Assembly: GCA_028821995.1 (NCBI GenBank)
Contig: JAPKEQ010000003.1
Coordinates: 1-49,115, forward strand
Length of the DNA stretch: 49,115 nt
Source: Alphaproteobacteria bacterium
GTDB lineage: Bacteria; Pseudomonadota; Alphaproteobacteria; UBA2136; JAPKEQ01
Direction: 5' to 3'
The notes under the pieces were generated by a model, which was not told the origin of the DNA, ran no database searches, and saw nothing but the letters and a program-made list of their open reading frames with translations. The stretch's first letter is position 1, and every line of letters starts with the position of its first letter. Positions 607-46,544 of the stretch are shown one piece after another. Position numbers and translations under genes: made by a program.

Positions 607-639
607 AAAAAAAGAGCCATCATTCTGATGGGCTCTTTT
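607..639 (-). terminator. Intrinsic terminator preceded by AAACGA motif
   Basis: AAAGAGCCATCA-TTC-TGATGGGCTCTTT with T-run on minus strand. Confidence 0.75.
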
Positions 640-648
640 CTATTCGTT

Positions 649-843
649 TTACCTGACCATTCTGGTGCGGGCAATTCTGTCTGCAAGTTTCATTCTTTTC
701 AGCCTCAAGCGATAAATCACATTCACAAGAGAAGCATGAAACGTTGCTTCGTTAACGCTTAGTAGCTTTTCTAGGGCATTTGTTTTTTCCCACAAAGCAC
801 GGTACTCAGCTTCAACAGCAGACGAAAGTTGGATAGCAGCCAT
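649..843 (-). CDS. Small coiled-coil protein, possibly DUF465-like
   Basis: AAGGAGG SD before ATG 843; C-terminal RLRLKRMKLADRIAR resembles the DUF465 pattern. Confidence 0.55.
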   Translation of the reverse strand: MAAIQLSSAVEAEYRALWEKTNALEKLLSVNEATFHASLVNVIYRLRLKRMKLADRIARTRMVR

Positions 844-942
844 AAAGGCCTCCTTAAAAAACAGTAAAATTGGTGCCCCCACCAATGATTGTCCGTAAAT
901 TAAATTATTGGTCTGATTGATCTCCTTTTCAAGGGACAAAAG

Positions 943-966
943 AAACAGCCCCAAAGGGCTGTTTTT
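943..966 (-). terminator. Intrinsic terminator (ACAGCCC...GGGCTGT family)
   Basis: AAACAGCCCCAAAGGGCTGTTTTT; TCGA at 973. Confidence 0.75.
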
Positions 967-976
967 AAAAATTCGA

Positions 977-1375
977 TCAAATTTCTACTTTAAGGCCATG
1001 CCTGCGGCAAAACGCTTTAAGGTCAATCAGCATAGGTGCATGCATTGCTTTAAACCCCAAAAGAGATTCACGCACATAGCTCACTGCGCGCTTATCTTCC
1101 AGTGCTGGCAAAACTTTAACCTTTAGCCAACGAATGCATTCCGCAGAAACAGACACAGCGCTTTCCATGCTCGCTTTAATTTCCTCATTCATATTTGCCT
1201 TTTGTTGGTCGCTCATTTGGCCAGCAGATTCCCCTTCGGAAAACTCATAACCAATCAGCGAAACAGCTTGTTCAACAAGCCTTTCCAAACGGCGAACTTC
1301 ATTTTCAACAGCAACCAAATCAGGCAGCTGATTGCCATCGTCGTCAAGCATGGTAGATGGATGTTTAAGAGCCAT
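977..1375 (-). CDS. Orphan protein
   Basis: GGAGG SD and pyrimidine leader before ATG 1375 (MALKHP). Confidence 0.65.
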   Translation of the reverse strand: MALKHPSTMLDDDGNQLPDLVAVENEVRRLERLVEQAVSLIGYEFSEGESAGQMSDQQKANMNEEIKASMESAVSVSAECIRWLKVKVLPALEDKRAVSYVRESLLGFKAMHAPMLIDLKAFCRRHGLKVEI

Positions 1376-1798: not shown

Positions 1799-1799
1799 C

Positions 1800-9975: not shown

Positions 9976-9980
9976 CATAC

Positions 9981-10006
9981 AAAAACAGCCCCGAAGGGCT
10001 GTTTTT
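9981..10006. terminator. Bidirectional terminator, identical to 10792-10817
   Basis: AAAAACAGCCCCGAAGGGCTGTTTTT; TCGA at 10011 on the orphan side. Confidence 0.85.
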
Positions 10007-10259
10007 ATTTTCGATATATAAACCATAAGGCTATATTCAGGCCAAAGTAACCAAGGCCGCCGCCTATAATCACAATTAAATAATTTGGCAGACCGCCAAG
10101 TACATAAGCTGCCAAAGCATAAGTGGGAATACACAAGACATAGCCAAGTGCAAAAGCTAGCGCCTTATGCTTAATGTTACAAAGGCGCACAATCCATATT
10201 TCGATGCCCAATGCGAGGGCACCAGCTGCAAAGAATGCAACAAAAGCAAGTATAGCCAT
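10005..10259 (-). CDS. Small orphan membrane protein
   Basis: Three hydrophobic segments; pyrimidine leader; terminator. Confidence 0.65.
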   Translation of the reverse strand: MAILAFVAFFAAGALALGIEIWIVRLCNIKHKALAFALGYVLCIPTYALAAYVLGGLPNYLIVIIGGGLGYFGLNIALWFIYRK

Positions 10260-10373
10260 AATAGGCCCCCTTCAGGATAGAAAAAAGAATAGAAGATGAT
10301 TGATTTAACTAGGTTATAGTAAGGCTTGAGTTACCTTTCAAGCAAAACCTATAAAAATATGAGTTTATATGAG

Positions 10374-10400
10374 AAAAACAGCCCGCAAAGGGCTGTTTTT
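10374..10400 (-). terminator. Intrinsic terminator (ACAGCCC family)
   Basis: AAAAACAGCCCGCAAAGGGCTGTTTTT; AACCGA upstream on minus strand. Confidence 0.8.
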
Positions 10401-10413
10401 CTTTTCGGTTCTG

Positions 10414-10791: not shown

Positions 10792-10817
10792 AAAAACAGC
10801 CCCGAAGGGCTGTTTTT
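10792..10817 (-). terminator. Intrinsic terminator after pgpA
   Basis: AAAAACAGCCCCGAAGGGCTGTTTTT; TAATCGA at the pgpA stop. Confidence 0.85.
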
Positions 10818-10826
10818 ATAAATCGA

Positions 10827-11360
10827 TTAACCAAACATAAACCAAAGCACAGCTATAGCAAAAAGTGCGGCAACGCCGTCATCCAGCATCACGCCCCAAG
10901 GGCCTTCAAATTTGCTATCCATCCAGCTAATCGGCGGCGGCTTGACCATATCAAAAAAGCGAAACAGTACAAAGGCCAGTAGCCAGTGCCACGCTTCCCC
11001 AAGGCCAAAAAGCGGAAAAGTACATATGACCATAGCCATACCAAACACTTCATCAATCACCACGCTTTTGTGGTCGTGAGCGCCGGTGTGATCTTCCACC
11101 ACGCGGCAAGCCCATACGCCAACCACAAGGCTCAGCAGTGTAAATACTGCTAAAGTCCACACACCTAAAAAAGTGTAAATCAGCCAAATAAAAGGCAGGC
11201 TTGCCACAGTGCCAGCGGTGCCAGAAAGCGGCAAATGGCCTGAGCCAAACCAAGCGGCAATCCAAAACCCTTTATGGGGGTATGGGTACGGCAGCGGTGC
11301 CACTTTGTATTTTTTTTGTCTGTCTTTTACATTGAACAGACGATTGAGAGTTTTCTTCAT
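10827..11360 (-). CDS. pgpA: Phosphatidylglycerophosphatase A
   Basis: FGSG..SGTAGT, HD..VVIDEV.GM, FVLFRFFDMVKPPPI, GVMLDD. Confidence 0.93.
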   Translation of the reverse strand: MKKTLNRLFNVKDRQKKYKVAPLPYPYPHKGFWIAAWFGSGHLPLSGTAGTVASLPFIWLIYTFLGVWTLAVFTLLSLVVGVWACRVVEDHTGAHDHKSVVIDEVFGMAMVICTFPLFGLGEAWHWLLAFVLFRFFDMVKPPPISWMDSKFEGPWGVMLDDGVAALFAIAVLWFMFG

Positions 11361-12613: not shown

Positions 12614-12722
12614 GGCAAATTACTTCAAAGGGCTTTTGCACCTCACTTGTAAAGTCGTCTCACTGCCCCCATACCATATATACAACTGAATAAATCTCTC
12701 TCACCATTTCATGGAGGCAGAA

Positions 12723-13268
12723 ATGCTAAAACATGCTCTTGTGCTTATCTGCACTTTGCTGTTGCCGACCCTTGCGTTCGCAGCAAACACAACTGAAGAA
12801 ACTGCCAAAACTGAAGAATGCCTTGAATATCATGGGGACATCTTGAACGGGATGCTGAACATGACGCCGGCACTCTTTTTTGGCCTAGATGGCGATCATA
12901 GCAATGATACGCCCTCAAACTCCCAAAACCTTGATAACCTCGCTTCTGCGATCACAAAGGCTCAGAACAAAGATTGCGCATCTGAAGCTTTGGCAAAGAA
13001 TATGGCCATGCTGATTTCCAGCGCAGACGTAGAAAAAGCGGCTGGGTATATCTTCTATGGCATTCATGCTGACACAACCAACGAAGAGGCCATTTGCAAA
13101 ATTGCAAGCCACGAAATTGCTGCGCTTAAAAGCAAAGCACCCAAGCGCTACAGAAGCAGCCTTGATGAGGTTTCCAGCTCTTGGTATATGGCAATTGAAG
13201 TCCGCAAAGCTATCATTGATTTGGATTTTTGCCTTGAACCTATCGCCACATCTTTTGTTGGTGAATAA
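12723..13268 (+). CDS. Orphan secreted protein
   Basis: TGGAGG SD; signal peptide ending AFA; terminator 13279-13303. Confidence 0.7.
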   Translation: MLKHALVLICTLLLPTLAFAANTTEETAKTEECLEYHGDILNGMLNMTPALFFGLDGDHSNDTPSNSQNLDNLASAITKAQNKDCASEALAKNMAMLISSADVEKAAGYIFYGIHADTTNEEAICKIASHEIAALKSKAPKRYRSSLDEVSSSWYMAIEVRKAIIDLDFCLEPIATSFVGE

Positions 13269-13307
13269 ACGATTTTGAGACAGTCCTTCACAGGGCTGTT
13301 TCTATTT

Positions 13308-14604: not shown

Positions 14605-15075
14605 ATGGCAAAATCCACAGTCGTCACATTTGTGATGTTCAATACTGCAGGCCAGTTGATGATGCAGGTCCGCAACCACATGAGCGCCGAAGGCAAAGCC
14701 ATCGGCAGCCCCGGCAAGCTCAGCCTGTTCGGCGCGCGCCATGATGGCGGCGCTGTTGATGTGCCTGCCGTGGTTTCACAGGAACTTGGTATCAATGTGA
14801 CTGCCGCAGATATCCAGTTTGTCGGTCACGTGCTTGATGACACCGTCAAAGGCCGTGTCAATCTGGTACACAAGATCACCGTCCCCTATGACAGTGCTCT
14901 GGTGGAACAAAACCCCGCTGGCAAAGACCTCATGGAAAAATTGGCCGCTGCCCAAGGCATGGGCGTTGTTGCCGTTGGCAAGGCCGACCTTGCCGCCGCG
15001 ATTGAAGCTGGTGATGTCAGCGAAATCAGCGTACAGATCATGAAAGAGCACCGCGGCCTGAAACCCAAAGTGTAA
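14605..15075 (+). CDS. Nudix-fold-like protein with degenerate Nudix box
   Basis: FNTAGQLMMQVR..PGKLSLFG..QELGI pattern; AAGGAG SD; terminator 15088-15117. Confidence 0.55.
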   Translation: MAKSTVVTFVMFNTAGQLMMQVRNHMSAEGKAIGSPGKLSLFGARHDGGAVDVPAVVSQELGINVTAADIQFVGHVLDDTVKGRVNLVHKITVPYDSALVEQNPAGKDLMEKLAAAQGMGVVAVGKADLAAAIEAGDVSEISVQIMKEHRGLKPKV

Positions 15076-15218
15076 AGCGAAACTGAAGCAAGCTCCCGTT
15101 AGGGGGCTTGTTTTTTTGCGCCTTAATGCCTATATATTGAGTAACACTTAACTCTCGCGCCGTTTTATACACAAGGCATTCAACCTTGAACAACGCGCCT
15201 TCTCTTAAAGGAAAACCC

Positions 15219-15692
15219 ATGAAGAAAATTCTTTTTTCCCTCCTGCTTGCAGCTCTTCCTGTTTCGGCATTTGCCGAGCAAGATTGGTGTGCAGATGTGC
15301 GCGAAACAGTTTCAAACTTAGACTTTCCCATTCATGTGGGAGAGCAAGAAAGCCCAATGCTCTATGGCGGTGCAATCATGGATTTGTTGCCAAGTTGTGA
15401 CATTTCCAAAACCATCAAAGTTCTGGTAGATGGTCATGAAGAAGCCATCATTGCCGAAGCGCGCCAGATCTACAAAGAGTATCGCGTAAATTACGTCCAC
15501 GTATGGCCAGAAACTCAAAAGGATTACTTTTGGGTGGCTATGAAAAGCGCAGAACTCCGATGGGAGCAAGCTGTTTACTTCAGCAACTGGCAAAGCAATA
15601 ATGCAGAAGCAAATCGCGATGCTGGTGTACATTTCAAGGAGCTCAAGCGCCTGCTTGATACACTTGAAGCGCTATACAACAAACAGCAATAA
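15219..15692 (+). CDS. Orphan secreted protein
   Basis: Signal peptide MKKILF..SAFA; TAATCGA plus terminator 15702-15733. Confidence 0.7.
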   Translation: MKKILFSLLLAALPVSAFAEQDWCADVRETVSNLDFPIHVGEQESPMLYGGAIMDLLPSCDISKTIKVLVDGHEEAIIAEARQIYKEYRVNYVHVWPETQKDYFWVAMKSAELRWEQAVYFSNWQSNNAEANRDAGVHFKELKRLLDTLEALYNKQQ

Positions 15693-15749
15693 TCGATAAA
15701 CAACAGCCCTCATTTTGAGGGCTGTTTGTTTTTGCATTAAAGGTACTTC

Positions 15750-15894: not shown

Positions 15895-16320
15895 CTTCAA
15901 ACTCTTGCTGCCACTGCAACCATTTACTTGGTCATTGGTGCCGCCCTCTTTTTTGCCCCAGTTTGGGCAAAAGAAGGACTTTGGTTCACAGGCATGTGCC
16001 TAACCACCTTCCTTCTTGCCTTCATGGTCATTCTCCATGAAAACACTGAAGGGATTGCGCCAGTCCTTGGTGCAACGTTTCTGCTGACCGCCAATCTGCC
16101 CATGAGCTTTATGGGCGGCTGGGATATCAACCTGAATGAAGCGATGAGCGTTATGCTTGTATGCTTTTTGCTTTCTGGTGGGCTGTTTGTAGCCTTCATG
16201 CATCAAATGGCTTTCAAGCTGATGCATGGCTTTGATCCTTTCTGCGCGACTGATTGTCGCCGAGAAAAATGCCGAGCACGCCGAGCACGCCGCGTCAACC
16301 GTCGTGCAATTTACGGTTAA
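15886..16320 (+). CDS. Orphan 4-TM membrane protein with basic Cys-containing tail
   Basis: Hydrophobic segments; TAATCGA plus terminator 16340-16368. Confidence 0.7.
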   Translation: MKTLQTLAATATIYLVIGAALFFAPVWAKEGLWFTGMCLTTFLLAFMVILHENTEGIAPVLGATFLLTANLPMSFMGGWDINLNEAMSVMLVCFLLSGGLFVAFMHQMAFKLMHGFDPFCATDCRREKCRARRARRVNRRAIYG

Positions 16321-16384
16321 TCGATATATGAAAATAAGCAACGCCCCCACCTTGGGGGCGTTTGTTTTCTATTTATGATTCTCT

Positions 16385-16587: not shown

Positions 16588-16655
16588 AGGGTGCTAGCCT
16601 CAACCGAAAAGAGCCCCTATGTTAAGGGGCTCTTTACTTTTTTACATCAACAGCT

Positions 16656-19524: not shown

Positions 19525-19564
19525 AAAAGCGAAAAAGCAAAGCCCCCAGGTTGGGGGCTTTTTG

Positions 19565-24920: not shown

Positions 24921-24934
24921 AGCTATTCTCGTAT

Positions 24935-26087: not shown

Positions 26088-26112
26088 CGCTATTTCGGTT
26101 ATTATTCAGCCA

Positions 26113-27529: not shown

Positions 27530-27757
27530 ATGTCCGCACAATTCTCTCAAAACCAGTACAAGGTTAACCCTCACACTGGTGTTGGCATTGAATTTAGCAT
27601 TAGCGAATTGGAATACGGCGGCTGGATGGATGCCCGTGCTTGGACTTGGAAACGCAAGACCAACCACAAAGGCACAACCCTCCGCACCCACCGTGACCAC
27701 ACGCGCTGCGCCAAGCGCGAACGTAAAGTTCTTAAAATGACCGCCAATCGACACTGA
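27530..27757 (+). CDS. Small basic protein, paralog 2
   Basis: MSAQ.S.N..K.NP.TG and KG.TLR shared with paralog 1; AATCGA plus terminator 27760-27794. Confidence 0.65.
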   Translation: MSAQFSQNQYKVNPHTGVGIEFSISELEYGGWMDARAWTWKRKTNHKGTTLRTHRDHTRCAKRERKVLKMTANRH

Positions 27758-28291: not shown

Positions 28292-28328
28292 TTTTCTTTT
28301 CCCCCACCCCTAACCATTGGAGGCCATC

Positions 28329-28751: not shown

Positions 28752-28880
28752 CCCCTTCAATCGAAATAAAAAAGCTCTCCCCCCTTTGGGGAGGGCTTTT
28801 GCTTTGTCAGTTTTTTTAACCTGCCTCTTACCTCTTTTCCCATAAAAATATATGGGTTTTAGGGAGGATTCGTAAACTGA

Positions 28881-33159: not shown

Positions 33160-33642
33160 ATGAAAACTGTACGTATCTTCGCAATCGGCGCCGTTGTCTC
33201 TGCTTTTTGCTGGGCACAAATCGGCACACTCCTTAACAAAGGAGAAATGCTCCCGATTACCCAAACGCCAGCGTATTACGCTGGCATGCTGGAAAGCTTT
33301 GACAACAAGTACGACGTGAGAGATCGCGTTGGCACTTGGGCTGACCGCGAAGGCCGCAAACTGCGCATGACCGCAACCAAAAATATGAATGAAGTAGGTG
33401 CTTACCTGTCCTCTTTCACCGTTTGGAATGCTGCCGCTGAAGAGGTGGATGGCAAGGAATCTGGCGGTGAGACTTTCACCCGCAAGGTGACTGAAAGCAC
33501 TGCTATTGAAAAGTCTCTGCGTCCGAACATGCGCCCTTGGACAGAGCTTGCGCCAATGACGTCAAAGCGCCCAGAAGCGCGGCCAGACAATTTGGCTCAG
33601 GATTTTGCAATCCGCAAGGCCATTGCTGAAGCTGGCGAATAA
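33160..33642 (+). CDS. Orphan exported protein with SxRPxxRP motifs
   Basis: N-terminal hydrophobic segment; AATCGA plus terminator 33661-33690. Confidence 0.65.
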   Translation: MKTVRIFAIGAVVSAFCWAQIGTLLNKGEMLPITQTPAYYAGMLESFDNKYDVRDRVGTWADREGRKLRMTATKNMNEVGAYLSSFTVWNAAAEEVDGKESGGETFTRKVTESTAIEKSLRPNMRPWTELAPMTSKRPEARPDNLAQDFAIRKAIAEAGE

Positions 33643-33764
33643 ATCGAAAAAAAGTATTTTAGAGGGCACTTAACGGTGCCCTCTTTTTTTGTTGTGTATA
33701 GCGCCCCTTCCCTTTATAAGAAGGCATCACTTACCCACTCTTTCCTTTTTCTATGGAGATAACT

Positions 33765-34382
33765 ATGACCAACCTTCCTGCTAATCTTGCTGTTGATAGC
33801 CTGATTGCAAACCCTGCTGCCGCCGTTTATATCTGCGATGTAGGCTTTGCTTATGTGATGTATGATGGCCTTGAAGAACCCATGCTTATTGGCACAAATG
33901 AAAGCCGTTATGTGCGGCAAAGCCTGAACCTTGGTACAATGGAACGCGTGCTGAGTGACATTTACCAGTCGGATAAGTTTCCACTGGGTACTTTGGTTGC
34001 TGTTGCAAACACCGAAGCTGCTACACCACCAGAGCTGCTTTACAGCGCAGAGCTTGCCAAAAGCTTTAACATGTACGAGCAGTTGGTTTTGCAAAAGCAT
34101 CTGCATATTCCAGAATGGAATTTTGGCCCGTTAGGCATTCAACATATTTTGAACCCGGAGCAGCATAAACGACTTACAGAGTACTGCTGGTTAACTAACT
34201 CTGGTTCTGGTCATGTGGATTTCAAACCCATGACGCAGCATGAAATCAAAGGCGTAGAGAGCCTGCTTCAATCTGGCGTTTTTGCTGAAAGCCCAAAAGA
34301 GCAATCTTTCCATAACATTCGCCTTGCGGATGTGAATCCAGATACAACTAAAATCCCTCCCTATACAGGTTGGGGCACTTAA
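33765..34382 (+). CDS. Orphan protein
   Basis: Pyrimidine leader, TATGGAG; AAACGA plus terminator 34390-34419. Confidence 0.7.
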   Translation: MTNLPANLAVDSLIANPAAAVYICDVGFAYVMYDGLEEPMLIGTNESRYVRQSLNLGTMERVLSDIYQSDKFPLGTLVAVANTEAATPPELLYSAELAKSFNMYEQLVLQKHLHIPEWNFGPLGIQHILNPEQHKRLTEYCWLTNSGSGHVDFKPMTQHEIKGVESLLQSGVFAESPKEQSFHNIRLADVNPDTTKIPPYTGWGT

Positions 34383-34503
34383 ACGATTCAAAAAGGCGGG
34401 TTTATCCCTGCCTTTTTTTGTTGCAGGCAGAAAATGAGGGGCGTATAACTTTTTCTATCAATCCTCTCCCTTCCCTTTTTTATCCTTAATACGGAGATTA
34501 AGC

Positions 34504-35094
34504 ATGTTCACATCTGACGAACGAGATTTCATGGTGGTTTACCACCGCCAAATCAACAAAAAACCATCTCCCTCTCTTCCTCATGCTACAATTGCTGATG
34601 AAAATTCCTATCAACATGCTGAGTTTGTGTGGAGTTTTTACGCAGGTATGGGCAACACTGATTTTATGGATATGCAAGCCGGTCATATTCGTGGGCTGAA
34701 AAGCCTTATTGAAAAAGGCTTTGCCAGTATTACAGAGCGCTCTAACTATATGAGCTTCACCTACCACAACATTGTAGTTCACCTTGATCGCATTCTTGCT
34801 CTTTGCCCCAAAGGGCGCCGAGATGTACCCGCTTATGTGATGATTCTTAACGGTTTGCATAGTGAAAATCTCAGCATCTTTAAAAACAGCCGCCGCGCTG
34901 CTTTTGTAGATACCCTTAGCGGAAAAAGGCTTGCTTACCGTATGTCTCATGCTGAAGAAAATGCCTTGAAATTTCTTCTAAATACTGGGTTTCTAGTAGA
35001 AACCATAGAGCAAAAACATATCATGGGCTCTAAAATGCAGCAGGTGATTCTAGCATCTCAGTCTATGCCGAAGGACCTTCCTGTTCCAAATTAA
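34504..35094 (+). CDS. Orphan protein sharing a repeat with 33765-34382
   Basis: Pyrimidine leader, GGAG; AATCGA plus terminator 35107-35133. Confidence 0.7.
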   Translation: MFTSDERDFMVVYHRQINKKPSPSLPHATIADENSYQHAEFVWSFYAGMGNTDFMDMQAGHIRGLKSLIEKGFASITERSNYMSFTYHNIVVHLDRILALCPKGRRDVPAYVMILNGLHSENLSIFKNSRRAAFVDTLSGKRLAYRMSHAEENALKFLLNTGFLVETIEQKHIMGSKMQQVILASQSMPKDLPVPN

Positions 35095-35174
35095 ATCGAA
35101 ACACCGACCGCCCCTTGAATGGGGCGGTTTTTTATGTAATCCTATAAGAAACTATAAAGAATGGGCCTTTAATT

Positions 35175-35978: not shown

Positions 35979-36134
35979 ATATTTATAATGCGGTATTTGG
36001 CGTGCTCTCACAAGAATTTTTAGTAAATTTAAGCGGGCTCTACTGTCATTGAAAATACATGTAAAGAGCAGTAAAGCCTGCTTAAACGCATAACACCCTC
36101 CATTTCTGGAGGGTGTTATGTTTCGTTTTCGTGT

Positions 36135-37004
36135 TTATGATCCGCAAGGATCAGAAGGATGAACCACTGAACCAATGACAATCGCAAGATCATCATGGTC
36201 AGGCTTGCGGCGAAGCTCTCCAAGGAGTTCTTCCAAGTAGCCATCAACGCCTTCATCAATGATACTGGTTGCAATAGCATCCACATCTTGAGGATTTGTA
36301 TCGTACGGCCAAGCAGCACCATCTGTGAAGACAATAAAGCCAGCAACATCTTTCATATGTCCTTCACCAGACCATTCAGAGGAGAGCATGAAGCTTTCAA
36401 AGCTTTTTTCACCGTTAAGAACAGGGAAAGAAACATTGTGCTGAGTCACACGCTTTTCATACAGCTCTTTTAGAATGGGGTGATTGATATCAAGTGAACG
36501 CCCTTCTTTGCGCTCAAGCTCTTCACGAATCATTTGACGTTCAGCTTCAAAGCGTGTGCCAGCAATGTGCTTGCGCAACACTTCAACGTTGCCATCATTG
36601 TCATAAATGATAATTTGGCAATTTCCAGCAATAGCCCAAGTATAGGTTTCATCTTCATGAACCCGAACAAGAGCACCGGCCGCCATAGGCAAATGATGCT
36701 TGGGTAGCCCCTCTGGTGTACGTGAGGCAATGAGTTTATTAGCTTCGCAAAGCAAATCGGCTGCTGAACCTTCTCCGCTTCCCAAAATGGCAACTTCAAC
36801 AGCAAGTTCACAAACTTTGGCAGCATATGTGCCAGCTGAAAAACGGTTATCTTGGAAGCGTGGGGCGTCATCGGTGCTAGAAGCACCATCAAACACCATC
36901 AGCATATCTTCGGTTGCGTCAGCACGGTCTCCGCAATCCAGCTTAGGCTGGCCTGCTTTAAAACCATGAATAACGGTAACCGATCTATCAACAAGTTTAA
37001 CCAT
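36135..37004 (-). CDS. PP2C-like phosphatase domain protein
   Basis: CGD, VFDGAS, AGNC, FTDG, DHDDLAIV; terminator 36089-36120. Confidence 0.65.
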   Translation of the reverse strand: MVKLVDRSVTVIHGFKAGQPKLDCGDRADATEDMLMVFDGASSTDDAPRFQDNRFSAGTYAAKVCELAVEVAILGSGEGSAADLLCEANKLIASRTPEGLPKHHLPMAAGALVRVHEDETYTWAIAGNCQIIIYDNDGNVEVLRKHIAGTRFEAERQMIREELERKEGRSLDINHPILKELYEKRVTQHNVSFPVLNGEKSFESFMLSSEWSGEGHMKDVAGFIVFTDGAAWPYDTNPQDVDAIATSIIDEGVDGYLEELLGELRRKPDHDDLAIVIGSVVHPSDPCGS

Positions 37005-37215
37005 GTTGATACCCTTTTCTTTTAAGGAAGCATTCTTTACTGAGTGGCATAAAGAATACTTCAGTGACAGTTTATTTAGAAACCATGGAAGCAGACCCAT
37101 GGGCTAGAATTAAAGGAAAGATAAGGTTTCATTAACCAACAACATATGGGGCACAAGAAAGCCCCCGTCAAGGGGGGCAAATCACTTTTCTCTAACTTGT
37201 ATGTATTACAAAACC

Positions 37216-37729: not shown

Positions 37730-38062
37730 TTAAAACCTTGAAACTGTGCGAATAAGCTGTGCATTGGCTAGCTTTTCAATATCACTGTAATTAATACGGT
37801 TCACTTTTTTACGAAGGCGACGTTCTAAATACTCTACAGTATGGTAAAACACTTCCCTTTTAAAGGCTTCAATAATGCGTGGATTACCGTGCATATTAAT
37901 TTTCCACCCAACATTATTTTCTTTTGTTTCACAAATAGTAACACGAATTTCACAGCGCAAAGAATGAGAAAAGCGAATTTCCTCTTCCCGAGACTGCGGA
38001 TCAGTGTAATAAATGAGTTCATCACTAAAAGTTGCTGTTTGCATAGCACTCTCTTTATTCAA
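37730..38062 (-). CDS. Unknown ~105-aa protein upstream of the CBS gene
   Basis: Full-length similarity to 46545-46850. Confidence 0.75.
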   Translation of the reverse strand: MNKESAMQTATFSDELIYYTDPQSREEEIRFSHSLRCEIRVTICETKENNVGWKINMHGNPRIIEAFKREVFYHTVEYLERRLRKKVNRINYSDIEKLANAQLIRTVSRF

Positions 38063-40568: not shown

Positions 40569-40658
40569 GATACTTCAGCAAGGCCTTTTCTTCAAGGAGA
40601 GTTTGCTACCTAAAGTAAAAACCTCTCGCACACGGCAAGAGGTTTTTATCTTTCGATT

Positions 40659-41018
40659 TTATTTCTTCATAAAGAGGATCATAGGAGCGACCAAACAAGC
40701 CAAGGCAACAACACCCCCCAAAATTGAAGAGAACGCTGCCACTTTAGATACAAGAATCACTGCCCCAAGTGCCACAACAAACGCAGTAACAATCATCTTA
40801 ATGCGCGCCCCTTGCGAGCTTTTGAGCACCTGTGGATTTCGCACATAAAAAAGCCAGCAGATCATCAAAAATTCAAGCACGCCATCTAAAATGTACAGGA
40901 CTGAAAACCCTGCAATCAAACCGATAATGATAGCCAGAAGCGCAAAAGCGCCAAAGAAAAGCATAAACATAGATGAGCTGCTCTGGGAAGTCATGCCTTC
41001 AGGTTCTTTATTTAGCAT
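40659..41018 (-). CDS. Orphan 4-TM membrane protein, paralog of 42120-42449
   Basis: Pyrimidine leader, TATGGAG; AATCGA plus terminator 40617-40647. Confidence 0.7.
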   Translation of the reverse strand: MLNKEPEGMTSQSSSSMFMLFFGAFALLAIIIGLIAGFSVLYILDGVLEFLMICWLFYVRNPQVLKSSQGARIKMIVTAFVVALGAVILVSKVAAFSSILGGVVALACLVAPMILFMKK

Positions 41019-41206
41019 GTGAAAACTCCATAAAAAGAGAAAAGAAAGATTAAATCTGCCGCAAAAATCGCATACAACCACATGAAAATCAAGCCAGTTT
41101 TGTGTTTTATATGCTTTTTGGCATAGTTTCTGCATTGTATACAAAACCTAAACATAACGTACCTTTTATAAGGCAAAACACAAAGATACATAAGGGGAAG
41201 AAAACA

Positions 41207-41608: not shown

Positions 41609-41693
41609 ACTCAACCTCTAGCACTTCAGTCTCAAGTCATAAAGTCACAAAACTTAAGCCCCCGTCATGTAGACGGGGGCTTACTTTATTCGA

Positions 41694-41897
41694 TTAGCTC
41701 TCCAGCGGTAGAGTGCATGCCATCCCAATTAAGGCAATCAGAAATACAATGGCCAGAATGATTGCAAGGCTTACCCAGAAAAGAGAAAGAGCCCAAATAA
41801 TACCCGTTAACACAACGGTAAAAACGAGAAGGAGAGTTATAATAGCGATACTGAGAGCGAAGAAAAAATATTTGGCACACCTTTTGCAAATTATTTT
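41694..41897 (-). pseudogene. Hydrophobic reading frame lacking a canonical start
   Basis: Frame ...KYFFFALSIAIITLLLVFTVVLTGIIWALSLFWVSLAIILAIVFLIALIGMACTLPLES* ends in TAATCGA plus terminator; in-frame TGA at 41898-41900. Confidence 0.5.
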
Positions 41898-41939
41898 TCA
41901 GGACGTTACATGACAATTGAATATGACGAGTTTAACCAG

Positions 41940-42040: not shown

Positions 42041-42119
42041 AACCATGATAGTACGTCCGTACAGCAAAAAACCCCGCCTAGTCAGCGGGGTTTTTTCATA
42101 TTCGATATTAAGGATTCTG

Positions 42120-42449
42120 CTATTTCATAAAAGATGGAAATAACAAAAGGGCGAAAGCAACAAGTACTGCCCAGAATACGCCAATAAAGCTAATGCAGCC
42201 AACAATAAAAGTTGCAATCACAGTCATAAGTATAGCTGCAACCAGATCACTTTCATCTGCAAATCCACCAGTAGACTTATGTGCCCAGCGGCACACCATA
42301 CAGAATTGCAACAAGCAATATATGCCTAAGGACACCAAAGGATTACTTGAAACGCCGACAAGGGCAATAATGCCAAATAGAGCAAACACGCCCCATCCAA
42401 ACACATGTTCTTTTGTAAGAACAATAGATTTAGGTTGTTGATCAGCCAT
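42120..42449 (-). CDS. Orphan 4-TM membrane protein
   Basis: Pyrimidine leader, TATGGAGG; TATCGA plus terminator 42066-42096. Confidence 0.7.
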   Translation of the reverse strand: MADQQPKSIVLTKEHVFGWGVFALFGIIALVGVSSNPLVSLGIYCLLQFCMVCRWAHKSTGGFADESDLVAAILMTVIATFIVGCISFIGVFWAVLVAFALLLFPSFMK

Positions 42450-42631
42450 GAGAAACCTCCATAAAGAGCCGAAAGAAAAGATAAAAGATGTGAGAATTAG
42501 CCAATGTATACCATTAAAACTAAAAGTTAGCAAGGGGTTTATGGGGCATACCTTAAACCAAGGCAATACTTTTAAGGCCCAGCGCAAAGCCCTCCCCTCT
42601 CACAAAAAACTTGCATAAATGCGGGGCGTTT

Positions 42632-45514
42632 TTAGTACCCTCTCGCTACGTAGGTCATATCTCGTGCAACGGCGCTGCCTGCACTGTTGTAAACAGTGAC
42701 ATCAAAACCTGCGTTTGTGACACCAGAAAAGCTAAAGTAATCTCCGCTTATGCCATTTTGTAGCGTAAGGCTTACCGCAGGAGGGCTATAAAACCCTTGC
42801 GCAAAGCTAACAGACATTCCACCCGTGCCAACACTTATCTGATGGCTTTCAAGCCTATCTGGCATATCTACAGAAATATGAATATCTGAGATTTGCACGT
42901 TATGGGCGCTATTAGCACTTTCGGCAACCACCCGAAACTCAAAGCCGCGGGCTGTGATATCTGCCTGGGTTAGCGGCTGCCATACTGTCCATACGGGGCT
43001 GCTTGCTGGGTCATCCTGCGTGCTGCGCACCTCAAGGCTAACATCAATGGTCGCAAGATCGTCTCCATCAAATTTGCCTGTTCTGCTATCAAATTCCCCA
43101 TCGGTAACATCAAACACATTTCTGCTATCGGTAATTTCAGCAATAAAACGTCCTCTCACACGGCTGGTATAGATAGAACCCAAATCAATATGATCAGCAA
43201 GCGTGTAAGTTCCTGTTGTTACAAAACCGCCATATCCATCAAAAGAACCAAGCGCATCATCAAAATCTCCCGTTGCATCATCAAAGGGGCTTAACCCGTC
43301 CAGAATAATATTTTCTGTATCATGAACAAATCCCATAAGGGCCCCATCAAAGGTAGGGGCTGGTGTAAGGGTTTCTATAACATTCATACCAACAACCTGT
43401 GGCGCCGTTGTAATAATAGCTGCCGCACTGACACTTTCATTGCCTGTGCTATCTACTGCTTTTACCATATAAGTACCTTCTAGCAGGGGCACCACAGCGT
43501 GAGTACTAATCCCTGCAAGGGCGGGGACAAGGTCTACTGCTGTGCTCCAAGTAGCGCCAGATGTTTTTGCGCTATGACGTAGCCTTATACGCCCCCCTAC
43601 TTTTACATCTATATCTTCTGCCTGAAGCCAACTTAAATGCGCCTGACCGTTTTGCGCACTTAGGTTAAAGTTTTCTATGTCAGCGGGCGCTGCTGTTAGG
43701 CCCTCTACTGTAAGGGTAGCCTCTGATGGATCGCTCTCTATACCAAGCGGGCTTACAGATACAACTTGTACAGTAACCTCCCCCGGTGCAAGGTCTTCTA
43801 TAACCCACTGCGTATGAGCTGTTTCCCCAAGCGTTGTATAGGCACTCTCTCCTGCCTTTTTAAGCTTAATACGATACCTTATAGCAAAGGCATCATTGGC
43901 ATCTGCCCAAGTTGCAGTTATACGTGCCTTAACGCCGCTTCCATCTGTGGTTACATATAAGTCCTCTATAAGCTCTGGTATACCGGGCGCGGTAATCTCT
44001 CTCCCTGTAGGAAGTGTTATCTCTTCTATAAGAGAAACTGTCTTAGCGGCGCTCTCATCCCAATCATAAGCACTAGCAGATTCTTCCTTAAGGTTTATAT
44101 CTACGCCCCCGTCTTCGCTCATTTGCCAGTGAGTAATACGGAAAAGCTTATTCTCCCATCCAAGCTCTGGCAGGTTCAGGTTTATAACGTCCCAGACTTT
44201 AAGAGACATGCCTTTTAGGTTAAGAGGCACACTGAGAGAAATAGTATTTCCGGATTGAGAGAGCATGAGCGCTGCTATACGCTGGGCGCTCTCTATATGA
44301 TTTGTTAAAGGGAGCTCTATATTACTAGCAATAGATGTCCCCCCTAGGGCGGCAACCAAATCATCATCCTTCACCTCAGGGAAATCTACAATCTGATAGG
44401 CCTGTTCAGGATCTGCAAATACGCCCCTTACAGTATTAAAGCGCTCCTTAAGTGAAGGCGCAGCGTGAATGTTAATCTCTCCCCTCAGCCAATCTGCATC
44501 TAAAGTAGCACTTGGCGCATCATAGGCACCTGCCAGCACATGGAAAGCTCCATCTATATAAGGCACTGCCCCTGCCCCTGCACTTGTAAGAGTTTCAAGC
44601 AGAGTGAGAGGTGTATTGGCTGTATCAAGTACCCCGTTAACTGTGTAGCGTTTTACAGTGCCGCCCCCTTTAAGGTTTACAGGCTCATCAGATATATCAG
44701 CGCTTGCCATAATAGAAGCTTCATCTATTTCATCTACTGCGCAACCCAGCCCATAAATAGGGTTTGTCAGATAATCCCTAACGGCCAGTGCCCAGTTATC
44801 AGAGTATGCGCTTACCCCACTACGCGGATCGTATAATTTTTTACCTCTTATCTTAGCTGTTACGTTTGGAATACCATTGGGATAGGCACTGTCATTATAA
44901 AGGAGCCTAATTCTGGCATAAGACACACCTTGCAGACGATGCGCCTCTGTCCACTCTCCAAGATCTCTCACCATATCAGGGTCTGCTGTTTGCGTACTCT
45001 CGCCCGAATAAAACTTTACATTCACCATGGGGTAGCCTGCAGCAGTGATATATTCAGGGTTTGTGGCATTATCAAACTCATCTAGTGTCAACGGTACTCC
45101 GTCAAGGTAAAGGGTATCAAGGCCGTCCACCTCATGCCCTGTAAAGGCAACAGCCATATATAAGGTGCCATTAGTTACGTTATAAGGTACCAGCCGGAAC
45201 ACCTCCTCCGGCACACCTTCAACAAGCTCTTCTACCGTCATAGGCAGCAAAGTGCTGTTTACCGTACTAATATGGGCAATCACGCCGCCGGTGCGCGCAG
45301 TGCCATAAATTACCTTATGGCTTTCTATGCTACTACGTAACGTGGTGGAAAGGCCTCTGTTGCCTGTAAGGCCTCTTGGGCTTTGCGCCATAGACGCCGC
45401 AACAACAGTACTTGCAGCCGTGGCAGCAAAAGCGGCAGTTGCCGCGCTTAATCCAAGTGCAGCCGCCCCATGGGCAGCGGCGTATCCAGCAGCAGCAACA
45501 GCAATCGCAGGCAT
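42632..45514 (-). CDS. Phage tail-tip/host-specificity protein (J-like) with Fn3-like domains
   Basis: VIYGTARTGG, HRLQGVSY, GKKLYDPR..YSDNWAL..DYL...YGLG, RYTVNG, FNTVRG.F.DP, C-terminal ARGY. Confidence 0.85.
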   Translation of the reverse strand: MPAIAVAAAGYAAAHGAAALGLSAATAAFAATAASTVVAASMAQSPRGLTGNRGLSTTLRSSIESHKVIYGTARTGGVIAHISTVNSTLLPMTVEELVEGVPEEVFRLVPYNVTNGTLYMAVAFTGHEVDGLDTLYLDGVPLTLDEFDNATNPEYITAAGYPMVNVKFYSGESTQTADPDMVRDLGEWTEAHRLQGVSYARIRLLYNDSAYPNGIPNVTAKIRGKKLYDPRSGVSAYSDNWALAVRDYLTNPIYGLGCAVDEIDEASIMASADISDEPVNLKGGGTVKRYTVNGVLDTANTPLTLLETLTSAGAGAVPYIDGAFHVLAGAYDAPSATLDADWLRGEINIHAAPSLKERFNTVRGVFADPEQAYQIVDFPEVKDDDLVAALGGTSIASNIELPLTNHIESAQRIAALMLSQSGNTISLSVPLNLKGMSLKVWDVINLNLPELGWENKLFRITHWQMSEDGGVDINLKEESASAYDWDESAAKTVSLIEEITLPTGREITAPGIPELIEDLYVTTDGSGVKARITATWADANDAFAIRYRIKLKKAGESAYTTLGETAHTQWVIEDLAPGEVTVQVVSVSPLGIESDPSEATLTVEGLTAAPADIENFNLSAQNGQAHLSWLQAEDIDVKVGGRIRLRHSAKTSGATWSTAVDLVPALAGISTHAVVPLLEGTYMVKAVDSTGNESVSAAAIITTAPQVVGMNVIETLTPAPTFDGALMGFVHDTENIILDGLSPFDDATGDFDDALGSFDGYGGFVTTGTYTLADHIDLGSIYTSRVRGRFIAEITDSRNVFDVTDGEFDSRTGKFDGDDLATIDVSLEVRSTQDDPASSPVWTVWQPLTQADITARGFEFRVVAESANSAHNVQISDIHISVDMPDRLESHQISVGTGGMSVSFAQGFYSPPAVSLTLQNGISGDYFSFSGVTNAGFDVTVYNSAGSAVARDMTYVARGY

Positions 45515-45664
45515 AAATCTTTTCCTTTATTGGTTATATAAACAGGCCAATACATTCTGCTGTTACTTGCCTTGTGTGCGAAGGGGTTGAAAAATGAGAA
45601 AATCACGCTTATAACATAGGTAATAAAACAACTCTGTTTTCCTCTTCCTAGAAAGGACGCTCTC

Positions 45665-46378
45665 ATGCGTTTTCTTAAAACTGCCGTTTTCGGCTTTCTC
45701 TCTATCCTCTTGTTTGCAACACATGCAAACGCAGACATATCTAAAAGCCGCTTAAGTGGCTTCAAAGCACACAGCAGCCACACTTATGTGCGGCAAACTG
45801 AGTACCGCACATTCCGGAGCTCAACAGATGGCAAGCGTTACGAAGCCTCTTGGGTGACGTGGCAACGCTCTAATGGCTCCCGTTACAAGCGCTACACATG
45901 GTGCCAGCTTGATAGCCCGCGCCTTTGCAGTGCACGCAACAGCGTTGTTGAACTGCGCGGCCGGGTGGCTGAACCAGAACCCTACCGCGGTAACAGACGT
46001 GGTGAAGTACGCCTCAAACCGCTAAACCGTAGCGACAAATACATTGGACAGCGCGAATATAGACGCACACGTCAACATGAGTCTGCTTGGGTAAAGTTTG
46101 CGCGGCGCAATGGCAACGTCTATGAGGTCTATACGACCTGTCGTATTGGCACAACAACCTGCCAAAACCAGTCTGTAGAGGAACTCGGTTACCAGCGGCG
46201 CTACGACCAAACCCATAGAAATGGAAGCCGGCGTGGAAACACCCGCTATAATAACCTCACCGACAAGCAAAAAGAATGCATCCAAGGTGCAGGATTTTTG
46301 GGCGCCATTGATGACAACATCTTTGAACAGGATGGATTTAAGGCCATTCTGGCTCTTTGCCTGTTGCTCAACAAATAA
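45665..46378 (+). CDS. Orphan secreted Arg-rich protein with two internal repeats
   Basis: Signal peptide ending ANA; TAATCGA plus terminator 46392-46419. Confidence 0.7.
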   Translation: MRFLKTAVFGFLSILLFATHANADISKSRLSGFKAHSSHTYVRQTEYRTFRSSTDGKRYEASWVTWQRSNGSRYKRYTWCQLDSPRLCSARNSVVELRGRVAEPEPYRGNRRGEVRLKPLNRSDKYIGQREYRRTRQHESAWVKFARRNGNVYEVYTTCRIGTTTCQNQSVEELGYQRRYDQTHRNGSRRGNTRYNNLTDKQKECIQGAGFLGAIDDNIFEQDGFKAILALCLLLNK

Positions 46379-46544
46379 TCGAAAATAACTTAAAGCCCCT
46401 CCTTACCGAGGGGCTTTTTGCATGCCTGCCACACCCTGTAAGTTTTTCATTTAGCCTATAAGACATAAGAAAGCATCAAACGTTACAAGGCTCAGGTTTA
46501 GTGCTACACTTGAGCTCGTACAATAAAAAAGGCCAAAACACATC

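What the first reader, a model, noticed from the sequence alone, without database searches (positions are those of the whole stretch)
607..46419. Conserved AANCGA(A/T) motif before terminators marks the 3' end of orphan genes
Seen: 23 intrinsic terminators are preceded, roughly 35-45 nt before the T-tract, by AANCGA(A/T) and an A-rich spacer. Exact TCGA occurs at 973, 10011, 10823, 15693, 16321, 27748, 28761, 33644, 35096, 40653, 41690, 42102 and 46379. ACGA/CCGA/GCGA variants occur near 644, 10405, 13269, 15077, 16604, 19529, 24929, 26095, 34383 and 36123. At terminators shared by convergent genes (9981, 13279, 16608, 19539, 24897, 41655) it lies on only one side, that of an orphan gene. It is absent after bamB, glnII, cspA and the 37216 CBS gene; pgpA is the one housekeeping exception. 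In two cases it lies inside the last codons (YRK*, NRH*), so it is placed relative to the hairpin rather than the stop. TCGA looks scarce elsewhere in the window. Inference: either a recombination/integration site of a dispersed single-gene cassette system, or a 3'-UTR signal for an RNA-binding protein or nuclease that defines an orphan regulon. I know no described system with this grammar.
Basis: partly seen in the sequence, partly recalled or inferred. Interest (0 to 1): 0.85.

Follow-up and report, generated by a model that had tools for sequence, protein, structure and literature searches.

The report
Hexamer tag before accessory-gene terminators
A six-letter motif (AATCGA and close variants) lies between the stop codon and the terminator hairpin of the fast-evolving, lineage-specific genes of this small marine bacterium, is kept by selection, and matches no described signal.

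Summary
AATCGA occurs 101 times in the 30 nt upstream of 670 strong predicted terminators, against 1.5 expected. Local shuffles give a mean of 6.3 and a maximum of 14. The motif is always on the gene's sense strand (58 to 1 in tandem gene pairs). It starts about 10 nt before the hairpin base and often overlaps the stop codon. Between congeners at about 78% nt identity the motif is kept while the spacer and stems drift. Its frequency falls from 50% to 2% of terminators across quartiles of coding-score density. It is absent after tRNAs. Terminators with and without it are equally strong. The tagged genes have no Pfam or PHROG hits and evolve fast. They also share pyrimidine-rich 5' leaders carrying ATCTT. 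No Rfam family or paper matches. My best reading (confidence 0.4) is an RNA-level 3'UTR tag, read together with the hairpin by an unidentified factor. A terminator helper or a DNA-level cassette boundary is less likely.

The parts
644..649 (-). AAACGA, overlaps the stop of orphan 649-954 by 1 nt; hairpin 608-641
   Evidence: no Pfam hit
973..978 (-). GATCGA (TCGA core), overlaps the TGA stop of orphan 977-1444; hairpin 943-964
   Evidence: no Pfam hit
10011..10016 (-). TATCGA inside the last codons (YRK*) of the 84-aa membrane orphan 10005-10259; hairpin 9979-10008, shared with the APH gene
10405..10410 (-). AACCGA after orphan 10414-10710; hairpin 10372-10402
10823..10828 (-). AATCGA overlapping the TAA of pgpA (10827-11360), the one Pfam-named exception; hairpin 10792-10817
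13267..13272 (+). AAACGA overlapping the TAA of orphan 12711-13268; hairpin 13277-13302; conserved in G001
15075..15080 (+). AAGCGA after 14605-15075; hairpin 15085-15114; the orthologous site reads AACCGA in G002 and AATCGA in G001
15691..15696 (+). AATCGA overlapping the TAA of orphan 15186-15692; hairpin 15698-15731; the whole gene and unit are absent from G001 and G002
16319..16324 (+). AATCGA overlapping the TAA of orphan 15886-16320; hairpin 16330-16369; motif kept in G001 and G002 while the stem is replaced
16602..16607 (+). AACCGA 14 nt after orphan 16375-16587; hairpin 16608-16635, shared with the GFO/ADH gene
19527..19532 (+). AAGCGA after orphan 18976-19524; hairpin 19536-19566; in G002 the ORF is replaced and homology resumes at this motif (AAACGA there)
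24929..24934 (-). ATACGA (weak variant) after 24935-25840; hairpin core 24899-24920
26095..26100 (-). AACCGA (a second TAGCGA lies at 26087-26092) after the 60-aa orphan 26113-26295; hairpin 26067-26086
27746..27751 (+). AATCGA inside the last codons (NRH*) of 27530-27757; hairpin 27756-27798
28759..28764 (+). AATCGA 7 nt after orphan 28317-28751; hairpin 28770-28800
33642..33647 (+). AATCGA overlapping the TAA of the secreted-looking orphan 33160-33642; hairpin 33661-33684; motif kept in G001 with a different stem
34381..34386 (+). AAACGA overlapping the TAA of orphan 33753-34382; hairpin 34391-34416
35094..35099 (+). AATCGA overlapping the TAA of orphan 34504-35094; hairpin 35109-35126
36123..36128 (-). 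AAACGA 6 nt after orphan 36135-37100; hairpin 36089-36120
   Evidence: the family has only 4 proteins in 5.8 billion
40653..40658 (-). AATCGA directly after the membrane orphan 40659-41144; hairpin 40613-40652; the whole unit is absent from G002
41690..41695 (-). AATCGA in the last codons of 41686-41916; hairpin about 41656-41682; in G002 homology ends at this motif
42102..42107 (-). TATCGA after the membrane orphan 42120-42587; hairpin 42066-42096
46377..46382 (+). AATCGA overlapping the TAA of orphan 45665-46378; hairpin 46392-46417; in G001 the stop lies 13 nt further upstream but the motif-hairpin spacing is kept

Best explanation
AANCGA (consensus AATCGA; C4, G5 and A6 are essential) is a cis element in the 3' untranslated RNA of one class of genes. 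It lies single-stranded, about 4-5 nt 5' of the A-tract and hairpin of an otherwise ordinary intrinsic terminator. I infer that a trans-acting factor of this lineage reads it together with that hairpin. The factor would be an RNA-binding protein or an endoribonuclease, and it would set the fate (stability, processing or translation) of these mRNAs. The tagged class is the fast-evolving, lineage-restricted, monocistronic accessory genes. That is about 170 of 1632 predicted genes, or 42% of gene-proximal predicted terminators. The same genes carry pyrimidine-rich 5' leaders with ATCTT, so they look like a co-regulated set.

Shown: the motif's existence, polarity, spacing, conservation, gene-class specificity, and independence from terminator strength.
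Inferred: that it acts in RNA, that a factor binds or cuts it, and what the outcome is.
For: - Enrichment: 101 observed against 1.5 expected before 670 terminators, with controls.
- Polarity and transcript location: in tandem pairs the motif is on the upstream gene's side 58 times and on the other side once. It is never found alone downstream of the T tract.
- Spacing: the motif start is a median of 10 nt before the hairpin base (sd 2.9), tighter than its distance to the T tract (sd 6.5).
- Selection: in 15 spanning G000-G001 alignments, motif positions 1, 2, 4, 5 and 6 are 87-93% identical. The spacer is 33-53% identical and the last codons about 68%. The motif is kept at orthologous sites where the stems are replaced.
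- Genus-wide: 43 observed against 0.94 expected in 400 kb of G001. TCGA ranks first of 256 tetramers before terminators in G001, G002 and G004, which belongs to another family.
- Not needed for termination itself: 0 AATCGA in the 3' flanks of 27 tRNA genes. Terminators with and without the motif match in dG (-18.2 vs -17.7), stem length and T tract.
- Class specificity: the AATCGA share among 404 terminator-bearing genes is 50%, 31%, 16% and 2% across quartiles of coding-score density. Spearman rho is -0.46, p = 2e-22.
- Fast evolution: in syntenic regions the motif genes have a median 55% aa identity to G001, with 8 of 33 having no hit. Other terminator-bearing genes have 81%, with 3 of 35 having no hit; p = 5e-4.
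- Orphan status in the window: 22 of the 23 tagged genes have no Pfam hit. 0 of 19 orphans tested have a PHROG hit.
- Second signature on the same genes: the 5' leader is T 0.41 / C 0.25, against A 0.36 / T 0.30 in other genes. ATCTT occurs in 34% against 11%.
- Substitution profile: no G-U-type tolerance (AATTGA 0.6%, AATCGG 1.8%, baseline 0.69%). This fits recognition by a protein better than a simple RNA duplex.
Against: - No factor was identified. ProQ/FinO (0 of 21) and RRM (0 of 21) were not found. Hfq is present in 20 of 21 genomes, including families that lack the motif, so it does not explain lineage specificity.
- No expression, 3'-end or cleavage data exist. No RNA run is on record.
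- Six bases carry little information. The hexamer also occurs 62 times in sense and 58 times in antisense inside genes, with no sign of sense-strand avoidance. It would have to act only next to a hairpin.
- Polarity and class specificity could also arise from a DNA-level cassette history.
- The gene calls, the terminator calls and the coding-score proxy come from my own heuristics.
- The footprint rests on only 15 alignments.
Confidence: 0.4

Rival explanations
1. Co-transcriptional terminator helper or insulator. The motif, as RNA or as non-template DNA, contacts RNA polymerase, NusA or NusG. It pauses the polymerase or aids hairpin folding, which raises termination efficiency for strongly expressed stand-alone genes wedged between core operons.
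For: The motif is always paired with a hairpin at a fixed short distance. 131 of 186 intergenic AATCGA copies are followed by a hairpin plus T tract, against 14 of 119 copies in coding sequence. A 2026 preprint (abstract read) reports that bases directly upstream of a terminator hairpin change expression up to five-fold in E. coli.
Against: tRNA terminators (0 AATCGA among 27 flanks) and core-gene terminators (2% in the top quartile) lack it. Terminators with and without the motif do not differ in dG, stem length or T tract, so it does not compensate for weak terminators. The preprint's effect is an adenosine next to the stem, not a CGA-containing hexamer.
Confidence: 0.15
2. DNA-level site. 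The motif plus hairpin is the 3' boundary or landing pad of a gene-cassette exchange system, or a polar binding site for a DNA-binding protein. Orphan ORFs would be swapped between a resident promoter and a resident AANCGA-terminator.
For: In G002 (about 93% nt identity) the orphan units at 15121-15750 and 40596-41116 are missing. The ORF at 18902-19527 is replaced by a sequence that does not align, with one breakpoint right after the -35 hexamer and the other exactly at the motif. At 41696 homology likewise ends at the motif. One unit between repeated hairpins is gained or lost relative to G001. A ComEC gene lies in the window.
Against: No Y1/HUH transposase was found in 21 genomes and no reverse transcriptase in the 3 genomes of the genus. 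No shared core sequence links the two breakpoints. The units are dispersed, lie in both orientations and are mostly syntenic with G001. The stems are not conserved in sequence. The replaced alleles look like very distant homologues at their C-termini when compared by eye. That fits allelic replacement through flanking homology, in which conservation simply resumes at the first constrained element. Tyrosine recombinases were not surveyed.
Confidence: 0.13
3. Target of a trans-acting small RNA. An abundant sRNA carrying UCGAUU would pair with the tag.
For: The motif is single-stranded, lies next to an Hfq-type module (A-rich stretch, hairpin, U tail), and Hfq is present.
Against: Position 3 varies freely among all four bases. 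U-for-C and G-for-A changes, which would keep wobble pairs, sit at baseline. Six pairs, two of them next to a free position, give a weak duplex. No candidate sRNA was sought.
Confidence: 0.07
4. Inherited relic. The 5' leader and the 3' tag-terminator are leftovers of a common expression cassette (moron-like, from a shared phage or plasmid pool, or from duplication) and have no present function.
For: The genes are stand-alone promoter-ORF-terminator units. Their GC3 (0.44) differs from that of the other terminator-bearing genes (0.38).
Against: The motif is markedly more conserved than the adjacent spacer across 22% nt divergence. There is no paralogy among tagged genes: 6 of 43 paralog links go to other tagged genes. 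0 of 19 orphans have PHROG hits. Two orphans searched in viral contigs gave no relative.
Confidence: 0.07

Closest known systems
DNA uptake sequences (Neisseria DUS, Pasteurellaceae USS) in terminators
   Same: A short, lineage-specific sequence that recurs at intrinsic terminators, with 'dialects' among related taxa (recalled knowledge).
   Different: DUS and USS are 9-12 nt long and are strongly over-represented genome-wide. They usually form the stem itself as inverted pairs. Here the hexamer is not over-represented overall: 14 in the window against 16 expected, and 307 copies in the genome. It lies outside the stem, on one side only, and tracks a gene class.
Hfq- and ProQ/FinO-type 3'-end binding modules
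   Same: Both are read as an A-rich single strand, a terminator hairpin and a U tail. Both decide mRNA or sRNA fate.
   Different: Those modules are defined by structure and base composition, not by a fixed hexamer, and they do not mark a gene class. ProQ was not found in 21 genomes. Hfq is also present in families that lack the motif.
Phage 'morons' (promoter-ORF-terminator units)
   Same: Stand-alone units with their own promoter and intrinsic terminator, unknown function, deviating composition, and presence/absence between close relatives.
   Different: These units are chromosomal, mostly syntenic across species, and have no phage-family hits (0 of 19). Morons have no known shared 3' hexamer (recalled).
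Integron gene cassettes with attC
   Same: Mostly orphan single ORFs, each followed by an imperfect palindrome whose sequence varies but whose short core is conserved.
   Different: attC has inverse core sites on both arms, the cassettes are co-oriented in one array next to intI, and most lack promoters (recalled). Here the units are dispersed in both orientations, each has a promoter, and the core lies on one side only.
REP/BIME elements with RAYT
   Same: Extragenic palindromes after genes with a conserved short 5' sequence.
   Different: REP stems are conserved in sequence and a Y1 transposase is encoded. Here the stems are diverse and Y1_Tnp was found in 0 of 21 genomes.
Eukaryotic and organellar 3'-end signals (AAUAAA; yeast mitochondrial dodecamer)
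   Same: A short linear hexamer or dodecamer at a set distance before the mRNA 3' end, read by a dedicated factor (recalled).
   Different: Those mark all or most mRNAs and direct cleavage. Here only accessory genes carry the tag, and the 3' end is presumably made by intrinsic termination.

Membership tests
Intrinsic (Rho-independent) terminator | G+C-rich hairpin followed by a T/U tract, just after a gene | tested here: met
   All 23 window sites fold, with dG from -15.7 to -31.7 for the folded 56-nt segment. 131 of 186 intergenic AATCGA copies have a hairpin plus T tract.
Intrinsic (Rho-independent) terminator | The hexamer is part of the general terminator consensus | tested here: not met
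   It is absent from the 27 tRNA 3' flanks and present at 2% of top-quartile genes. Hairpin parameters are equal with and without it.
DNA uptake sequence (DUS/USS) | Strong genome-wide over-representation of the motif | tested here: not met
   Window: 14 observed against 16.3 expected. TCGA itself is depleted: 35 against 95, and O/E 0.83.
DNA uptake sequence (DUS/USS) | The motif forms the terminator stem as an inverted pair | tested here: not met
   The motif lies 5' of the stem on one side only. 0 of 145 convergent hairpins have AATCGA on both sides.
REP/BIME-RAYT | A Y1 (HUH) transposase gene in the genome | tested here: not met
   PF01797 found in 0 of 21 genomes; the control rang in 6 of 14.
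REP/BIME-RAYT | A conserved palindrome sequence family | tested here: not met
   The stems are diverse. One local stem family (AACAGCCC...) recurs in the window, but most stems differ.
Integron attC cassette array | Co-oriented array with inverse core sites on both arms | tested here: not met
   The units are dispersed on both strands, and the conserved core is on the 5' side only.
Integron attC cassette array | An adjacent intI integrase | not tested
   Tyrosine recombinases were not surveyed.
Diversity-generating or other retroelement target | A reverse transcriptase is encoded | tested here: not met
   PF00078 found in 0 of the 3 genomes of the genus (86-97% complete) and in 4 of 21 genomes of the order.
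ProQ/FinO ligand | A FinO-domain protein is present | tested here: not met
   PF04352 found in 0 of 21 genomes.
Hfq 3' module | Hfq present, plus a hairpin, a U tail and an A-rich 5' flank | tested here: inconclusive
   Hfq is present in 20 of 21 genomes and the A-rich flank and U tail are present. This does not explain the CGA core or its lineage and class specificity.
Any Rfam family | A match at the gathering score | tested here: not met
   0 matches at gathering. At E<=1 there are 3 matches, none on the motif units; the best is a cspA leader match below threshold.

The most novel reading that the evidence does not exclude
A streamlined marine bacterial lineage marks the mRNAs of its hypervariable accessory genes (about one gene in ten) with a two-part code: a pyrimidine-rich ATCTT leader at the 5' end, and an AAUCGA tag at the foot of the terminator at the 3' end. 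A dedicated, still unknown factor reads the 3' tag to control these transcripts as a block, separately from the core genome. New or replaced genes in these slots must carry or acquire the code, which is why non-homologous alleles share it.
Probability: 0.3. Interest if true: 0.85.

Novelty: categorically new. Interest (0 to 1): 0.75.

Why it matters
Bacterial 3' untranslated regions are thought to act mostly through structure: the terminator, and Hfq or ProQ modules. Genome-wide 3' sequence tags that define a gene class are a eukaryotic and organellar idea.

Here a hexamer under clear purifying selection separates accessory genes from core genes at the level of their terminators. It does so in a lineage with a genome of only about 1.8 Mb, and it is paired with a distinct 5' leader. 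If it is an RNA tag, it would give direct access to how a cell handles its fast-turnover genes apart from its core genes. It would also give a simple sequence rule for finding real small orphan genes in metagenome-assembled genomes.

If it instead marks cassette boundaries, it would point to a new way of exchanging single genes. Either way it can be tested with Term-seq, reporter mutants and RNA pull-downs.

Tried and rejected
Readings rejected
- DNA uptake sequence: the motif is not over-represented and is not part of the stem.
- REP/RAYT or IS200-type element: no Y1 transposase and diverse stems.
- Retroelement-driven diversification of the fast-evolving genes: no RT in the genus.
- ProQ and RRM proteins as readers: not found in the 21 genomes searched.
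- Compensation for weak terminators.
- Stop-codon context or an in-frame CGA codon: the common offsets put CGA out of frame, and the in-frame offset 0 occurs only 7 times.
- IHF-like WATCAR site: AATCAA is at baseline, 0.9%.
- Membrane or secretion zip code: the share of genes with a TM segment or hydrophobic N-terminus is the same with and without the motif.
- Paralogous family expansion.
- Phage origin: 0 of 19 orphans have PHROG hits, and 2 orphans gave no relatives in viral contigs. That method finds only close relatives.
- TAAGTA/AAGTAA before G003 terminators is simply a C-terminal Lys codon plus the stop, not a counterpart motif.

Steps that led nowhere or needed redoing
- My first footprint alignment was inflated by cheap gaps. 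I discarded it and redid it with strict local alignment.
- No RNA holder was listed for window:27000-36900.
- I laid contigs of four runs. Two runs with a metatranscriptomic library label hold one contig over gene 33160-33642 at depth 681 and 508, against 2-4 for neighbouring pieces. Contig depth cannot rank genes and these runs were found through that piece, so I use it for nothing beyond a lead.
- The ESM Atlas gave nothing usable for the conserved 110-aa protein at 37730-38062.
- Paper supplements were not consulted.
- Papers: searches were read as search listings only. For 10.64898/2026.07.06.736697 I read the outline and abstract only.

Full report
SETTING. The window is contig C61 of a 1.67-Mb assembly in 140 contigs, with 43.9% G+C and 86% completeness. 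Two congeners are about 1.8 Mb and 95-97% complete, so the real genome is small. The only named close record is a marine MAG labelled 'uncultured Magnetococcales' (94% aa identity over a tail-fibre-like protein). Runs that hold parts of the stretch are labelled seawater. G002 is about 93% identical in DNA to the window. G001 is about 78% identical and syntenic.

- All 13 TCGA coordinates are correct. TCGA is scarce in the window: 35 sites against 95 +/- 10 in dinucleotide-preserving shuffles.
- The ten variant sites exist too. Four of the 23 deviate from AANCGA in positions 1-2 (GATCGA, TATCGA twice, ATACGA).
- I predicted terminator-like hairpins over the whole genome with my own scanner. It found 970 strand-specific sites, 670 of them strong.
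- In the 30 nt upstream of the strong set, AATCGA is the top hexamer: 101 observed against 1.54 expected from genome frequency. TCGA is the top tetramer: 145 against 14.
- Against an AT-matched background, the median over the 120 permutations of the same six letters is 5. 1000 shuffles of the same upstream windows give a mean of 6.3 and a maximum of 14.
- Seen from the motif, 113 of the 307 AATCGA copies in the genome lie within 35 nt 5' of a predicted stem.
- With RNAfold, 131 of 186 intergenic copies are followed by a hairpin plus T tract, against 14 of 119 copies inside genes.

ANATOMY.
- The core is short. Flanking positions carry little information beyond an A/T-rich spacer, a C-rich arm, a G-rich arm and the T tract.
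- A single-substitution scan shows that C4, G5 and A6 are essential. Their variants sit at 0.2-1.8% near terminators, against a baseline of 0.69%. Positions 1-3 are preferred but tolerant: A>G at position 1, and T>A>C>G at position 3, at 2-6%.
- The motif start lies a median of 10 nt (sd 2.9) before the first paired base and 35 nt (sd 6.5) before the T tract. It is therefore set relative to the 5' foot of the hairpin.
- It is also pushed against the stop codon: 42 cases overlap TAA by two bases and 35 overlap the stop by one. The rest trail off to about +20.
- At 46377 the G001 stop lies 13 nt further upstream, yet the motif-hairpin spacing is unchanged.
- Polarity is nearly absolute. In tandem gene pairs the motif is on the upstream gene's side 32+26 times and on the other side 0+1 times. 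At 145 convergent hairpins it is 26 left, 28 right and never both for AATCGA. For AANCGA it is on both sides in 10, against about 19 expected under independence.
- None of the 218 hairpins inside genes carries AATCGA within 30 nt on either side.

CONSERVATION.
- In 400 kb of G001, AATCGA is again the top hexamer before terminators: 43 against 0.94 among 234.
- At orthologous sites the motif persists while stems drift or are replaced (15693, 16321, 16604, 33644).
- Only 36 sites had an anchor in the G001 sample, and 15 of these gave strict local alignments spanning the motif. In those 15, motif positions 1, 2, 4, 5 and 6 are 87-93% identical and position 3 is 73%. The next five spacer bases are 33-53% identical and the last codons about 68%. 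The sample is small, but it shows an island of constraint.
- Outside the genus, TCGA (without the AA) is the top-ranked of 256 tetramers before terminators in G004, a different family: 12 of 386 copies against a 0.7% baseline. It ranks third in G005 (4 of 284). It ranks 183rd and 85th in two genomes of family f2.

WHICH GENES?
- In the window, 60 ORFs were scanned against Pfam.
- 22 of the 23 tagged genes have no hit at E<=0.01. PgpA is the exception.
- Among genes with a clear terminator, a lenient NCGA count gives 22 unnamed and 2 named with the motif, against 4 unnamed and 6 named without it (Fisher p = 0.003). A strict AANCGA count gives p = 0.04.
- Genome-wide I used two proxies. First, among 404 genes with a predicted terminator, the AATCGA share by quartile of dicodon coding-score density is 50%, 31%, 16% and 2%. 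For AANCGA it is 71%, 53%, 36% and 9%. Spearman rho is -0.46, p = 2e-22.
- Second, in regions syntenic with the G001 sample, the 33 tagged genes have a median 55% aa identity, with 8 having no hit. The 35 untagged terminator genes have 81%, with 3 having no hit; p = 5e-4.
- The untagged 'hypothetical' partners at shared terminators are the conserved ones (62-85% identity).
- tRNA genes, about 18 of which have hairpins by eye, show 0 AATCGA and a single TCGA among 27 flanks.
- Tagged genes are not paralogues of one another and are not enriched for membrane or secreted proteins.
- They have higher GC3: 0.44 against 0.38.
- They have no PHROG hits (0 of 19).
- One tagged gene, tested against 5.8 billion proteins, has only 4 relatives. 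The search's length and word-index limits apply.

A SECOND SIGNATURE. The same genes have unusual 5' leaders. From -40 to -12 the composition is T 0.41, C 0.25 and G 0.12, against A 0.36 and T 0.30 in other genes. ATCTT(T) lies about 35-45 nt before the start codon in 34% of them, against 11% of other genes. GTATAC and TTGAC boxes are also more frequent upstream. So both transcript ends of this class are marked.

TURNOVER. Compared with G002, several tagged units are missing (15121-15750 and 40596-41116). One (18902-19527) is replaced by an ORF that does not align. That ORF keeps the same -35 box, has its own ATCTTT leader, and has the same AA(G/A)CGA-hairpin. Homology ends right after the -35 hexamer and resumes exactly at the motif. 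The same happens at 41696. Hairpin loops are inverted between the two strains at two terminators.

HOW IT MOST LIKELY WORKS.
- Strict sense polarity, location inside the transcript, spacing to the hairpin foot and purifying selection all point to action in RNA or during transcription.
- tRNA and core-gene terminators lack the motif. Terminators with and without it are equally strong: dG -18.2 against -17.7, stem 11.8 against 11.7 pairs, T tract 7.4 against 7.2 of 10. So the motif is not a general termination element and does not compensate for weak hairpins.
- The remaining reading is a class-specific 3'UTR tag, read together with the hairpin by a lineage-specific factor. The lack of wobble tolerance favours a protein (binder or nuclease) over an sRNA.
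- This step is inferred. No factor was found: ProQ and RRM are absent from the genomes searched, and Hfq is present but not lineage-specific. No usable RNA data exist.
- The cassette reading keeps some weight because of the breakpoints at the motif. It lacks an enzyme, a matching 5' site and any array structure. The breakpoints are also what one expects when divergent alleles are exchanged through conserved flanks.

COMPARISON WITH KNOWN SYSTEMS. The units are ordinary intrinsic terminators plus an extra element. That element fails the tested defining features of DUS/USS, REP/RAYT, integron attC arrays, retroelement targets and ProQ ligands (see the membership table). Rfam has no match on these units. 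Three full-text searches found no description (listings only). One preprint on bases upstream of terminator hairpins concerns a single adenosine next to the stem (abstract only). In function it most resembles 3'-end sequence signals of eukaryotes and organelles, and Hfq/ProQ modules. In genomic behaviour the tagged genes resemble phage morons.

VERDICT. The feature is real, statistically overwhelming, conserved and gene-class-specific, and it has no described counterpart. Its mechanism is unresolved. I give 0.4 to an RNA tag read by a protein factor, 0.15 to a termination helper, 0.13 to a DNA-level boundary, and smaller weights to an sRNA target or a relic.

Caveats: gene and terminator calls are home-made heuristics, 'orphan' is measured by proxies outside the window, the conservation footprint has n = 15, and the organism is uncultured.

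Noticed in passing
genome-wide; window examples upstream of 18976, 33160 and 15186: Genes carrying the 3' motif share pyrimidine-rich 5' leaders (T 0.41, C 0.25 from -40 to -12). They carry ATCTT(T) about 35-45 nt before the start in 34%, against 11% of other genes. GTATAC and TTGAC boxes are also more frequent upstream.
   Followed up: partly
window 18902-19527, 15121-15750, 40596-41116, 16374-16663, 41696-41863 versus G002:C11: Orphan slots are replaced or missing in a relative at 93% nt identity. In two slots homology ends at the -35 box and/or resumes exactly at the AANCGA motif.
   Followed up: partly
window 19539-19561 and 15702-15726 versus G002 (L067): The terminator loops are reverse-complemented between the two strains while the stems are kept. 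These are small hairpin-loop inversions.
   Followed up: no
window 943-964, 9981-10006, 10372-10402, 10792-10817, 13277-13302, 15702-15726: Six terminators share nearly the same stem (AACAGCCC...GGGCTGTT). One unit between two of them (about 445 bp, holding a small membrane ORF) is gained or lost relative to G001.
   Followed up: partly
window 15724-15900 and 16360-16531: The two segments are similar to each other: a duplicated post-terminator, promoter and 5' region of neighbouring orphan genes.
   Followed up: no
window 42632-45514 (-): A 960-aa protein matches phage tail fibre / central tail fibre J families (PHROG 5616 at 1e-75, PHROG 31 at 2e-74). It may be a prophage remnant or a gene-transfer-agent-like host-specificity protein. 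A gene with a lysozyme domain lies at 32060-32977.
   Followed up: partly
window 37730-38062 (-): A 110-aa protein with no Pfam hit is 97% identical to its G001 counterpart, more conserved than the neighbouring enzymes. The Atlas gave no usable relative.
   Followed up: partly
window 47339-47693 (+): A match to the Rfam cspA thermoregulator below threshold (60.8 bits against a gathering score of 78, E = 5e-13) lies in front of and over the cspA-like gene 47411-47644.
   Followed up: no
whole genome: CCGG (O/E 0.53) and GATC (0.70) are the most under-represented tetramers, which suggests restriction-modification or methylation pressure. TCGA is at 0.83 by second-order Markov expectation but only 0.37 of dinucleotide expectation in the window.
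   Followed up: no
window 33039-33575: In two seawater runs with a metatranscriptomic library label, one contig over orphan gene 33160-33642 has depth 681 and 508, against 2-4 for neighbouring pieces. It is flanked by adapter sequence at both ends. This is only a lead that the gene may be very highly expressed.
   Followed up: no
window 21160-22746 (-): A ComEC competence gene is present and conserved (82% aa identity to G001). DNA uptake could feed the slot replacements.
   Followed up: no
genome-wide stop codons: Among genes with terminators, TAG-ending genes rarely carry the motif (3 of 47). The share is 27% for TAA and 23% for TGA, in line with the motif overlapping an A-ending stop.
   Followed up: no
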